NCBI RefSeq assembly: GCF_030013595.1
Contig: NZ_CP122768.1
Source of the DNA: Escherichia coli
GTDB taxonomy: Bacteria > Pseudomonadota > Gammaproteobacteria > Enterobacterales > Enterobacteriaceae
Strand: one strand, 5' to 3'
DNA: 64,000 nt
Positions 12,001 to 15,000 of the stretch are shown here, one piece after another (the stretch's first letter is position 1; every line of letters starts with the position of its first letter). Position numbers: made by a program.

Positions 12001-15000
12001 TCCTGATTTTGCAAGTTCACAATCCCATGTTGTTACGATGAATAAGAAAGCGCCAAAACGCGAAAAGGAGATTTTGACACGGTGGCGCATTTTATCATGA
12101 AGTGAGGTGGAGAAATGCCAGTAGCGGCGCGTTTCCCGGTGGTATTTGCCACCGGGCAGAACCCGGCAGTAGGGGAACGCGCCGTCTGGTTTAGATCACC
12201 TCTGGGGCATTGCCGGTGATGGCTTTGACATCTGCCAGCAGATCGCCAAACTTGCCGTAGTTAACCTTAACGCCATCGTCGAGATCAATACTGATTCTCA
12301 TATCAGCATAGTGACGCAGGCGGTCGTCATAACTACGCAGTTCGCTGAATTTTTTGATCAGGCTGTCGCGTTCGCGTTTCAGACGTGTGGCTTCGCCGCC
12401 AGAAGCCTCATCAAGTTGATCGTTCAGGCGATCGATATTGGCCTGATAACGCGCCAGCAGCGGTACAACATATTCGGTACGCATTCTCGACAGCGTAGCG
12501 TCGTTATAGCGATGCAGATACACCAGGCACTCAAAGGCTTTCTCTTTGCCGGAGCTGAATAGCCAGTAGATTGGCCGCTTTTTATACATCTTCATATGAT
12601 CTTTCCAGAACTGGGTGGAAAGATAGCGGCGAATGGTCTCCAGCGCAGATTCGCCTTTTTTCGGCTTGATCGCGTATAAACAGAGACTTTCGGCGATAAA
12701 TTCGAGGTTTTCCTGCAGGTGCTCTTCACCCCAGACAGTGCGGACAAACTCTTTGACGCGAGAGGTGACGTCGTCCTCAAACCACTCGTCATCCATCAGC
12801 GGCAGGATACCGTCACTGTCGGCTGGGAAGGTTTTGTAGGCACCTTCGGCGACGAGATCGGCGAAGCCTTTGTTGCCTTCATGGGCGTAGACAAGGCCTT
12901 CGCGATCGAGGGAGTAACGGCCCATTTGGCAGCCGATGATGTAGGAAGTTAACTCAGAAAATATGTCACTACATTGACGGTGGTTTATTTCATCAAGATT
13001 ATTCTTATTTGGATATTTAAAGGTTGAATTCGAATCTAAAGCTATCTTTGAAATAGAAACATTCGGCTCTATCAAACCTAAAAGATTATATGTTTCTAAC
13101 AATTTTTGATTGTTTTTCGTTTCGAGTAATTGTGTTCTCACAACTCTATTCTGCCATGATTCTTTCATTTGATTGTAAGAATTTGATATTTTTTCATTTT
13201 TAAAATCTAATAAAGGATGATTTTTGAAAGACCACGAACTTTCATGTTCATCCCAATCTGATTTTGAAAGTTCTATGAGTTCGCGAACTTGAGATACAAT
13301 TTCCTGCTTATATTTTTCTATGACAGGCACTTTACCCACAGGGCCTTCATGGAAGTCTAGTGTCGGGGATAAAGCTTCAAGTATTTTTTCCGCTATTGGG
13401 CTATTCATTAATGCCAGCGCATAAAAAAGAGAATCTTGATTGTCACTAAAGCAAACAGAGCCTTTTGTTTCGAAAAGAAAACCCTCAGGGCTGTAGCGCA
13501 TGGATAAATATGATGATGAAATTGTAGACCAAGTAATTCCTTCCTTAAAATAATATCTTTCATTACGGATTACTGAGCCTTCGTAAGATTTCATTTCTGC
13601 ACCATTTTTATCCCAGTTCACAACCAAATCATTGTTTCCAAACCATTTTCTGTACGCCCCTCCTTTGTTGCAGGGAAACCATTTAGAAGCATTTTTGTCA
13701 TCCATGTATGAATTAAATTGGCTAAATTTTGTTAGGGAAATTTCACTCCATCTTCTCAAAAATAAATCATTATTACCTGTGGCAAATCCTTGTCTTGGTA
13801 CAGAGTAAACTTGAACTGGTGTACCCAATGTAAAGCAAGACAGTATTTTAGGGTTTACCCAATATGCAATAGGATAACCGGGTATTTTTTTGAAATCACT
13901 TGCAGTAGCATTTTTTAAACGCTCATTTTTTACAGGGAACTCTTCTGGGTATCCTTTTTCATTGATATCGTCATTTTCCGCATAGGAGAAGGAGCCCTTA
14001 TAAGATGGAGTATTCGTATTTCTAAATACAGTAGCATTTGTACCAAAAGCAATTTTCATAACTCCATTGCCCATATGCACCATAGTTTCGATTGTATAAT
14101 TAGTGAGGATATTTTTACGCATGTTTTCAAAACTGGAAAGGAACATCCAGGATTGCATTGTTACCATTGAGTTGAAACCAGCATTTTTCAACCAAAGGAA
14201 ACCACGCTCAATAAACATAGCAAACAAATCAGACTTACTATCTGGGAAATTATTTTTGGCAAACTCTTTCAGCTCACCATTCATTCCCTTACTGCCCATA
14301 TACGGCGGATTCGCCACCACTGCATCATATCGCTGCGCTAAAATCCACGCCTGCTGAATAAACGGAATAAACGCTTTCGCCGCCGCTTTCTGTTGGAAAT
14401 CGCCCTCCTGTTCCAGGCGATACAGCGCGTCCAGAAATACCTTCAGTTCCGCTTCTTCTTCCTGCGGTATCTGAATCAGTGAGCCCAGCGTTTTTGCATT
14501 CACAAAGCGTTTCAACGTGCGCATCAGCAGCTGATATTCTGCGCTGTCAGTTTGGGTTAACGCGGTATTTTCAGCAAACATATCCCCCATGCTGCCGGTT
14601 TGTACCTGCTGGTGGAAATTGAGCTGCTGCCAGAGTTTGGCGATATCCAGATGCAAACTTTCCTGCAAAGAAACAATATTCAGACGCACATCGGCTTTGT
14701 TGAATAAATCAGATTTTGGGTAAGTCTCCCCCGTAGCGGGTTGTGTTTTCAGGCAATACGCACGCTTTCAGGCATACCTGCTTTCGTCATTTTGTTCAGC
14801 GCTCGTACCAGGGCCATAGCCTCCGCAACCTGACCATCGTAGTCACGCAGCGTCAGTGAACCCCCGAACAGCTGTTTTACCCGGTACATCGCCGTTTCCG
14901 CTATCGAGCGACGGTTGTAATCTGTTGTCCATTTCCACCGCGCATTACTCCCGGTCATTCGCTGATTAGCCACTGCACGGTTACGGTCTGCATATTCACC

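What the first reader, a model, noticed from the sequence alone, without database searches (positions are those of the whole stretch)
12955..14295. Sharp low-GC block inside pglX suggests a swapped methyltransferase/target-recognition segment
Within the pglX fragment, the flanks (12191-12950 and 14300-14689) are GC-rich like the rest of the locus, but a ~1.3-kb central block is strongly AT-rich (about one third GC in sampled stretches, e.g. 13021-13080). The block begins just C-terminal to the NPPY catalytic motif, where PglX/Type IIG-like enzymes carry their variable target-recognition region. This compositional mosaic is consistent with specificity-domain exchange by recombination.
Basis: partly seen in the sequence, partly recalled or inferred. 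Interest (0 to 1): 0.45.

Follow-up and report, generated by a model that had tools for sequence, protein, structure and literature searches.

The report
Swappable specificity cassette in broken pglX
The AT-rich 1.3-kb block is the hypervariable DNA-specificity part of the BREX phage-defence methyltransferase gene pglX, which E. coli strains exchange by recombination between near-identical flanks; this is a known kind of variation, and the copy here is a dead remnant cut off by an insertion sequence.

Summary
GC falls from 0.50-0.52 to 0.34 between maximum-likelihood change points 12936 and 14272. GC3 is 0.29 in the block against 0.57-0.61 in the flanks, while GC2 is unchanged.

The gene is on the minus strand. 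The block starts a few bases after the NPPY codons (14300-14311) and ends at the codons for ..SYIIGCQMGRY.

In 117 full-length homologues the flanks are 96-100% identical (about 90% in other genera), but the block is only 41-100% identical. Of 5426 complete E. coli genomes, 339 carry the 3' flank and one carries this core.

The block has two independently assorting modules:
- Module A (PglX aa 516-660) is the post-NPPY half of the methyltransferase domain.
- Module B (aa 661-960) is the target-recognition domain plus spacer helices.

Strain PI12 is about 100% identical to the window from brxL through module B, then diverges at the domain hinge.

Low GC does not mark a recent import. Every allele examined has the trough, including most distant pglX genes (Deinococcus, Mesorhizobium, Acinetobacter).

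The window copy is a pseudogene. IS903B (14693-15749) abuts codon 382, and brxA, brxB and brxC are gone. This is a new allele of a known kind, of modest interest.

The parts
12191..14692 (-). pglX 3' remnant: codons ~382-1214 plus stop of BREX-1 methyltransferase PglX. It lacks the N-terminal domain and SAM-binding motif I.
   Evidence: tblastn of a full-length 1214-aa PglX aligns aa 382-1214 to 14692-12194 at 99%. NCBIfam BREX_1_MTaseX scores 918 bits (cut-off 500), matching profile positions 404-1210 only. Pfam finds Eco57I and N6_Mtase.
14300..14311 (-). NPPY catalytic motif IV codons
   Evidence: Coordinates; the motif is visible in the translation. The role of NPPY is taken from PMC11341690 and PMC11842806.
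14296..14692 (-). Conserved upstream flank (PglX aa ~382-514), GC 0.50
   Evidence: 93.5-95.7% nt identity to five other E. coli chromosomal alleles (74% to strain HS). GC3 is 0.573.
13856..14290 (-). Variable module A: post-NPPY half of the methyltransferase domain (aa 516-660), low GC. It includes the loop equivalent to HS BrxX 587-601, which reads the 6th base.
   Evidence: Identity profiles. Diverges from PI12 at ~13893-14296 while module B stays identical. NCBIfam profile positions 521-675. Loop role from PMC11842806.
12956..13855 (-). Variable module B: target-recognition domain plus the two spacer helices (aa 661-960), low GC
   Evidence: Identity profiles. No blastn match in alleles L003, L004, L006 and HS, and only a short partial one in L002 (75.7% over 8%). 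NCBIfam profile positions 677-968. Domain limits from the solved homologues 8C45 and 9EWZ as given.
12191..12936 (-). Conserved C-terminal domain flank (aa ~961-1214 plus stop), GC 0.52
   Evidence: 91-100% nt identity to all E. coli alleles fetched. Present in 339 of 5426 genomes. All alleles converge at ~12937.
14693..15749 (-). IS903B (1057 bp, terminal inverted repeats GGCTTTGTTGAATAAATC; transposase ORF 14749-15717) that truncates pglX
   Evidence: Inverted repeat I1. Pfam DDE_Tnp_1 and DDE_Tnp_1_5. Annotated as IS903B in matching records. 1056/1057 identical to the copy in strain B1, with the same right junction and a different left junction.
9417..12020 (-). pglZ (BREX phosphatase), intact
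   Evidence: Pfam PglZ. 97.7-99.8% nt identity to other E. coli BREX loci.
7322..9406 (-). brxL (Lon-like BREX protein), intact
   Evidence: Pfam BrxL_N, BrxL_ATPase and Lon_C. 98-99.9% nt identity.

Best explanation
The low-GC block is the specificity-determining middle part of the BREX type 1 methyltransferase PglX. It consists of two adjacent modules.
- Module A (aa 516-660) is the second half of the methyltransferase domain. In the solved E. coli HS enzyme this part carries the loop that reads base 6 of the 6-bp site.
- Module B (aa 661-960) is the target-recognition domain, which reads bases 1-4, plus the helical spacer.

In the E. coli and enterobacterial population this middle part exists as dozens of deeply divergent alleles. 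They sit between N- and C-terminal parts that are nearly identical in all strains. New combinations arise by ordinary homologous recombination after horizontal transfer. Crossovers occur in the conserved flanks (just after NPPYMG, and at ..GCQMGRY) and at the MTD/TRD hinge. No invertase or silent cassette is involved here.

Each combination presumably gives BREX a different methylation and defence motif. The diversity would then be maintained by phage-driven, frequency-dependent selection. Both of these points are inferred, not shown.

The AT-richness belongs to the whole module pool, not to this strain. It most likely reflects modules that circulate between hosts and lineages, or that evolve too fast to be pulled to host composition (inferred).

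In this window the system is dead. An IS903B-adjacent deletion of about 11 kb removed pglX codons 1-381, brxC, brxB and brxA.
For: Composition:
- GC3 is 0.29 in the block against 0.57-0.61 in the flanks, with unchanged GC2. Change points are at 12936 and 14272.

Mosaic structure:
- Alleles have flanks 95-100% identical and cores 20-50% identical.
- 117 homologues show the same pattern.
- 339 of 5426 E. coli genomes hold the 3' flank, but only 1 holds at least 80% of this core.
- brxL and pglZ are 97.7-99.9% identical across the same strains.
- Breakpoints fall at ~12937 and ~14296, or ~14213 in two alleles.

Two modules:
- P0007 has module B 100% identical and module A 23-57% identical. P0015, P0017, P0019, P0022 and P0044 show the reverse.
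- At 85% clustering there are 24 A types, 28 B types and 37 combinations. The window's A type is found with 10 B types and its B type with 5 A types. Four type quadruples show all four combinations.
- Strain PI12 is ~100% identical up to ~13893 and then diverges.

The modules are divergent PglX, not foreign inserts:
- NCBIfam BREX_1_MTaseX matches module A at profile positions 521-675 and module B at 677-968.

Function of the parts:
- TRD residues read bases 1-4, and MTD loop 587-601 reads base 6 (PMC11842806).
- Engineered specificity changes map to TRD 684-838 and loop 591-600 (PMC11341690).
- HS and the crystallised Salmonella PglX share a module A type but differ in module B.

No programmed switching here:
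- The window holds no inverted repeats other than the IS ends, and no second pglX piece.

Truncation:
-, compared with intact loci.
Against: - No methylation or phage data were available, so it is not shown that different modules give different motifs in these particular alleles.
- The 120 homologues are the best-scoring hits to the query, so they are enriched for the window's own A and B types. The type counts are therefore not population frequencies.
- Recombination is inferred from sequence patterns. No formal breakpoint test (GARD, PHI) was run.
- The cause of the low GC is not resolved.
- One E. coli plasmid pglX (pIS04_68) and a Rhodococcus one show little or no trough, so the signature is not universal.
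Confidence: 0.85

Rival explanations
1. Plain amino-acid composition bias of a conserved domain, with no mosaicism.
For: All homologues show the same GC trough at the same place. The block is somewhat richer in F, Y, M, I, N and K (0.37 against 0.25-0.27).
Against: GC2 is unchanged while GC3 halves. The sequence in the block is 20-50% identical between alleles whose flanks are 95-100% identical.
Confidence: 0.02
2. A single recent import into this strain's pglX from a low-GC donor. On this view the low GC marks the date and source of one swap.
For: The edges are sharp. The allele is rare: only one other of 5426 complete E. coli genomes carries it.
Against: - Every allele examined has an equally AT-rich block, in E. 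coli, Klebsiella, Salmonella, Mixta and, among distant taxa, in most of those checked.
- The same allele occurs in intact form in other E. coli (P0002-P0006).
- No low-GC donor with a near-identical block was found. The best hits outside the enterobacterial PglX family are 57% identical or less.
Confidence: 0.08
3. Programmed (site-specific) inversion or shufflon switching of pglX cassettes, as in Lacticaseibacillus rhamnosus.
For: pglX is strongly enriched among targets of programmed inversions, and those inversions switch a middle part while keeping the N and C termini constant (PMC9881135). A metagenomic BREX locus (L019) has a tyrosine recombinase and inverted cassettes covering aa 518-876.
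Against: The window has no inverted repeats other than the IS903B ends, no second pglX fragment, and no recombinase next to pglX. Intact E. coli loci run brxA-brxB-brxC-pglX-pglZ-brxL with no invertase.
Confidence: 0.02
4. AT-drift of a pseudogene: the block decayed after IS903B killed the gene.
For: The gene is truncated and the BREX system is incomplete.
Against: The ORF is still open over 832 codons. It is 99-100% identical to intact 1214-aa proteins (P0002-P0006). Intact genes have the same trough. The flanks of the same pseudogene keep GC 0.50-0.52.
Confidence: 0.01

Closest known systems
PglX/BrxX of E. coli HS (PDB 9EWZ, 8ZEK) and Salmonella (PDB 8C45, 8Q56), BREX type 1 methyltransferase
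   Same: Same protein family and domain order (NCBIfam). The flanks are near-identical: the C-terminal domain is 98% identical to HS and 93% to a Salmonella allele. The published work already states that the TRD is the most variable part and sets specificity.
   Different: This allele's module A is 46% identical to HS, and its TRD is 41% identical to HS and 45% to a Salmonella allele. Its motif is therefore unknown. The papers read here do not mention the GC discontinuity, or recombination between alleles ('GC content' occurs 0 times in three of them, and 'recombin' 0 times in the one searched for it). The window copy is truncated.
Programmed-inversion pglX loci (Lacticaseibacillus rhamnosus, Brevibacterium casei; Milman et al. 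2023, PMC9881135)
   Same: It is the middle part of PglX that varies, while the N and C termini stay constant. In the metagenomic locus L019 the cassette limits (aa 518-876) start at the same point as the E. coli block, and the cassettes are also lower in GC than the flanks (0.46-0.48 against 0.60).
   Different: Those systems switch within one cell line by a site-specific recombinase acting on inverted repeats. Here the variation is between strains and arises by homologous recombination, with no invertase or silent cassettes.
TRD reassortment in Type I hsdS genes and MmeI-family Type IIL/IIG enzymes
   Same: [quoted passage not shown]
   Different: PglX has no nuclease and acts within the six-gene BREX system. 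Here the exchangeable unit also includes half of the catalytic domain.

Membership tests
BREX type 1 PglX methyltransferase | Sequence match to the curated family model above its cut-off | tested here: met
   NCBIfam NF033452 BREX_1_MTaseX scores 918 bits against a cut-off of 500, covering profile positions 404-1210 of 1210.
BREX type 1 PglX methyltransferase | Gamma-class N6-adenine MTase motif IV (NPPY) | tested here: met
   NPPY is at fragment aa 127-130, nt 14300-14311.
BREX type 1 PglX methyltransferase | SAM-binding motif I (GxG, aa 315-317) and the N-terminal domain, i.e. a complete, potentially active enzyme | tested here: not met
   Homology starts at aa 382 next to IS903B. No other pglX piece exists in the window. 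It is a member by descent but a pseudogene.
BREX type 1 system (complete locus) | brxA, brxB, brxC, pglX, pglZ and brxL together | tested here: not met
   pglZ and brxL are present. tblastn with BrxA, BrxB and BrxC finds nothing in the 64-kb window. Intact relatives have all six genes.
Recombinationally exchanged specificity cassette (mosaic allele) | Conserved flanks around a divergent core in homologues | tested here: met
Recombinationally exchanged specificity cassette (mosaic allele) | Evidence of reassortment (the same module in different backgrounds) | tested here: met
   PI12 shares module B at ~100% nt identity but not module A. All four combinations of module types are seen.
Recombinationally exchanged specificity cassette (mosaic allele) | Different cassettes give different recognition motifs | not testable with these tools
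   This needs methylome data. It is supported only indirectly by the structural and mutational papers.
Programmed-inversion (shufflon) pglX | Inverted repeats, silent cassettes and an adjacent recombinase | tested here: not met

The most novel reading that the evidence does not exclude
The AT-rich signature may be a general rule of BREX-1 pglX rather than an enterobacterial quirk. In most lineages checked, the post-NPPY/TRD segment has far lower GC3 than the rest of the gene. Examples are Deinococcus (88% falling to 28-60%), Mesorhizobium, Novosphingobium, Acinetobacter, Oceanisphaera, Methylomonas and a ~59%-GC metagenomic organism. A TRD cassette from that metagenomic BREX locus is also more similar to the E. 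coli TRD (51%) than the 'conserved' flanks are (34-36%). This would mean specificity modules form a pan-bacterial, compositionally distinct pool that moves between otherwise unrelated BREX loci, with base 6 (module A) and bases 1-4 (module B) exchangeable separately.
Probability: 0.3. Interest if true: 0.5.

Novelty: new member of a known kind. Interest (0 to 1): 0.3.

Why it matters
PglX is the specificity factor of BREX, so the natural module boundaries say where chimeras are likely to fold. The boundaries are:
- just after NPPYMG;
- the MTD/TRD hinge near aa 660;
- ..GCQMGRY near aa 965.

The one loop-swap attempt reported in the structural paper lost anti-phage defence. The observed A×B reassortments suggest that base 6 and bases 1-4 of the motif can be recombined independently. 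That makes the link between allele and motif directly testable with existing strains.

For this particular window the practical meaning is small. The BREX system is an inactive remnant.

Tried and rejected
1. Searching module B alone against the large protein database returned only short metagenomic fragments at 57% identity or less, plus one 100% match over 24% of the query. It missed the full-length PglX proteins that carry an identical module. It therefore could not be used to trace the module's nearest relatives, but it did lead to the shufflon-type locus L019.
2. I tried to predict the motif by similarity to characterised enzymes. The Salmonella protein P0035 shares the window's 6th-base loop (100%). 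However, it is not the crystallised allele: 8C45 has a different core. No motif can be assigned.
3. Promoter-like and terminator-like sites in the AT-rich block are not enriched (6 found against 6.6 expected).
4. I looked for a distal copy of the tRNA-Phe 3' end to delimit the island. There is none in the window.
5. Three literature searches for a prior description of the GC discontinuity or of mosaic pglX alleles found none. This does not prove that none exists.
6. The expensive genome and metagenome scans, the structure prediction and the representative-protein search were not used. Solved structures and annotated genomes already answered the question.

Full report
**Setting**

The window is E. 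coli chromosome at the pheV island. tRNA-Phe lies at 20285-20360, next to a P4-type integrase (18822-20087) and to yqgA and speC.

The minus strand carries the distal end of a BREX type 1 locus:
- brxL at 7322-9406;
- pglZ at 9417-12020;
- an 832-codon ORF at 12191-14689 with Eco57I and N6_Mtase domains.

NCBIfam places this ORF in BREX_1_MTaseX at 918 bits against a cut-off of 500. It matches only profile positions 404-1210.

A full-length 1214-aa PglX aligns from aa 382 at nt 14692. IS903B starts at 14693 (1057 bp, inverted repeats GGCTTTGTTGAATAAATC, ending at 15749).

Strain B1 has the same IS903B with an identical right-hand junction beside the outer-membrane-protein gene, but an intact BREX locus about 11 kb away. 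The left and right flanks of the window's IS are not duplicated. The simplest reading is therefore an IS903B-adjacent deletion of about 11.2 kb that removed pglX codons 1-381, brxC, brxB, brxA and four further annotated features (inferred). No BrxA, BrxB or BrxC homology remains in the window. The gene under study is a pseudogene remnant.

**Observation**

The low-GC block is real.
- Sliding GC is 0.27-0.42 inside the block and 0.47-0.57 outside it.
- The best two-change-point model gives edges at 12936 and 14272, with GC of 0.522, 0.342 and 0.500.
- GC3 drops to 0.294 from 0.573 and 0.613, and GC1 drops to 0.386. GC2 does not change. This is a nucleotide-level difference, not an amino-acid effect.

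**What the block is**

I compared the window with annotated E. coli genomes.
- The 760-nt 3' flank is present in 339 of 5426 genomes, and 315 of them are at least 90% identical.
- The 1341-nt core is found over at least 80% of its length in only one genome, even with sensitive blastn.
- Alleles L002-L004, L006 and HS keep brxL, pglZ and the C-terminal pglX flank at 91-99% nt identity, and the N flank at 94.5-95.7% (74% in HS). They have no match, or only short partial matches, in the core.
- At protein level the flanks are 95-100% identical and the core is 20-50% identical.
- Among 117 full-length homologues from the large protein collection, the E. coli-type N flank is 98-99% identical and the C flank 96-100% identical. 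The core ranges from 41% to 100% in many discrete steps. In other genera the flanks are about 87-93% identical, while their cores are no more distant than E. coli cores.
- All alleles diverge from the window at ~12937, just 3' of the codons for SYIIGCQMGRY. On the other side they diverge at ~14296, right after NPPYMG, or at ~14213 for two alleles. These points coincide with the GC change points.
- Modules A and B still match the PglX family model at the expected positions. They are divergent homologues, not unrelated inserts.

**Two modules**

Identity profiles show that the block splits near aa 660.
- P0007-P0013 are 100% identical to the window type from aa 661 onwards, but only 10-57% identical between aa 541 and 660.
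- P0015, P0017, P0019, P0020, P0022 and P0044 are 90-100% identical in aa 511-660, but only 13-63% identical in aa 661-960.

At the DNA level, strain PI12 is 99.8-100% identical to the window through brxL, pglZ, the C flank and module B. It diverges abruptly at ~13893.

Clustering at 85% identity gives 24 A types, 28 B types and 37 combinations. The window's A type is paired with 10 B types, and its B type with 5 A types. Four quadruples of types show all four combinations. This sample is biased towards the query's own types, so these are not frequencies. P0014 hints at a further sub-boundary near aa 870, between the TRD and the spacer helices; this is tentative.

**Mapping to structure**

Solved homologues exist: 8C45 and 8Q56 (Salmonella) and 9EWZ and 8ZEK (E. 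coli HS). The published domain limits are:

| Enzyme | MTase domain | Hinge | TRD | Spacer helices | C-terminal domain |
|---|---|---|---|---|---|
| Salmonella PglX (PMC11341690) | 227-661 | 654-659 | 662-849 | 850-960 | 961-1225 |
| E. coli HS BrxX (PMC11842806) | 211-650 | loops 638-675 | 651-837 | not given separately | 838-1205 |

In HS, TRD residues read bases 1-4 and MTD loop 587-601 reads base 6.

Module A is therefore the post-NPPY part of the MTase domain, including the base-6 loop. Module B is the TRD plus the spacer helices. The internal crossover zone is the flexible hinge.

HS and the crystallised Salmonella enzyme share a module A type but have different B modules. Their motifs, GGTAAG and GATCAG (recalled from the Salmonella papers, not seen in a tool output), share the final AG. 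This fits the model but does not prove it.

The window's module A is 46% identical to HS, and its TRD is 41-45% identical to the HS and Salmonella alleles. Its motif cannot be inferred.

**Low GC is a property of the module pool**

All E. coli alleles fetched have the same trough. So do alleles labelled Klebsiella, Mixta, Serratia and Salmonella.

Distant plasmid-borne pglX genes mostly show it too, starting right after NPPY:
- Deinococcus: GC3 of about 88% falling to 28-60%.
- Mesorhizobium, Novosphingobium, Oceanisphaera, Acinetobacter and Methylomonas also show the trough.
- It is weak in a Rhodococcus gene and absent in the E. coli plasmid pIS04_68.

A metagenomic BREX locus (L019, about 59% GC) has pglX split around a tyrosine recombinase, with inverted cassettes that cover aa 518-876. 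Those cassettes have GC of 0.46-0.48 against 0.60 for the constant parts. One TRD cassette is 51% identical to the window's TRD, although the constant parts are only 34-36% identical.

The low GC therefore does not date a swap in this strain. It could reflect a circulating, unameliorated module pool. It could also reflect fast evolution under AT-biased mutation, with less homogenising recombination than in the flanks. I could not separate these two.

**Rivals**

- Amino-acid bias is excluded by GC3 and by the divergence of the block.
- Post-inactivation decay is excluded by intact proteins that are 99-100% identical to the fragment (P0002-P0006) and by the normal composition of the flanks.
- Programmed inversion is known for pglX in other taxa and also changes the middle part between constant termini (PMC9881135). 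The window and the intact E. coli loci have no inverted repeats, silent cassettes or invertase.
- A single recent import from a low-GC donor is unlikely, because every allele is AT-rich and no donor was found.

**Novelty**

It is already published that PglX specificity lies in a variable TRD, and that a middle segment varies between constant ends.

I did not find three points in the papers searched:
- the sharp compositional discontinuity;
- the extension of the variable unit into the catalytic domain;
- the independent assortment of the two modules in natural E. coli alleles.

These are incremental refinements of a known kind of system, seen here in a dead copy of the gene.

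Noticed in passing
window 14693-15749 and flanks: IS903B abuts pglX codon 382, and its two flanks are not duplicated. Strain B1 has the same IS with an identical right junction and an intact BREX locus. This implies an IS-adjacent deletion of about 11.2 kb that removed brxA, brxB, brxC, the 5' end of pglX, a hypothetical gene, a BCCT transporter gene, a DUF2254 remnant and an IS1 copy.
   Followed up: yes
window 14689-14752 (minus strand): Public annotation (P0001, 853 aa, a cluster of 30 member sequences) calls a fusion ORF whose first 21 residues (MKTQPATGETYPKSDLFNKAD) are read out of the IS903B end into pglX. 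The same truncated junction therefore exists in other E. coli assemblies.
   Followed up: partly
L019 (metagenome ERZ27265127, contig k141_93300) 3063-14844: A BREX-1 locus has pglX split into an N part (665 aa), a C part (303 aa) and several middle cassettes (371, 374 and 270 aa; aa 518-876 or 640-876 equivalents) around a tyrosine recombinase, a Fic gene and an IS21-type element. This is a shufflon-like arrangement. The cassettes have GC of 0.46-0.48 against 0.60 for the constant parts.
   Followed up: partly
L020 (GCA_948609335.1) 5358-12605: A low-GC (0.36) BREX locus has pglX called as an 868-aa ORF, followed by a separate 245-aa TRD-like ORF, four ORFs with no PglX match, and a 311-aa C-terminal-domain ORF. 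A pPIWI_RE gene lies upstream. The arrangement is unexplained.
   Followed up: no
L021 (E. coli HS pglX) aa 383-514 equivalent; window 14296-14692: The 'conserved' N-side flank is only 74% identical between the window and strain HS, at both DNA and protein level, although it is 94-96% identical to other E. coli alleles. This overlaps the BrxX-specific MTD insert (residues 390-500) described for HS and may be a further variable segment.
   Followed up: no
P0035 versus PDB 8C45 (Salmonella PglX): Two 1225-aa Salmonella PglX proteins have near-identical flanks but different cores. The same mosaic therefore exists within Salmonella.
   Followed up: partly
L017 (E. coli plasmid pIS04_68 pglX): This plasmid-borne BREX-1 pglX (56% identical to the chromosomal type) shows no GC trough after NPPY. 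It is an exception to the pattern.
   Followed up: no
window 1-1400 and 1833-3871: The lowest-GC stretch of the window (0.339 over 1341 nt from position 50) lies at its start. Two nearby ORFs (1833-2405 and 3080-3871, minus strand) have no Pfam match. They are probably more island cargo.
   Followed up: no
window 16101-18500: Between IS903B and the integrase lie an outer-membrane beta-barrel gene (16101-16841) and a phosphoethanolamine-transferase-like gene (17001-18500; Sulfatase and EptA_B_N domains), separated by an AT-rich spacer (GC ~0.32 at 16800-17100). This pair is shared with about 350 E. coli genomes.
   Followed up: partly
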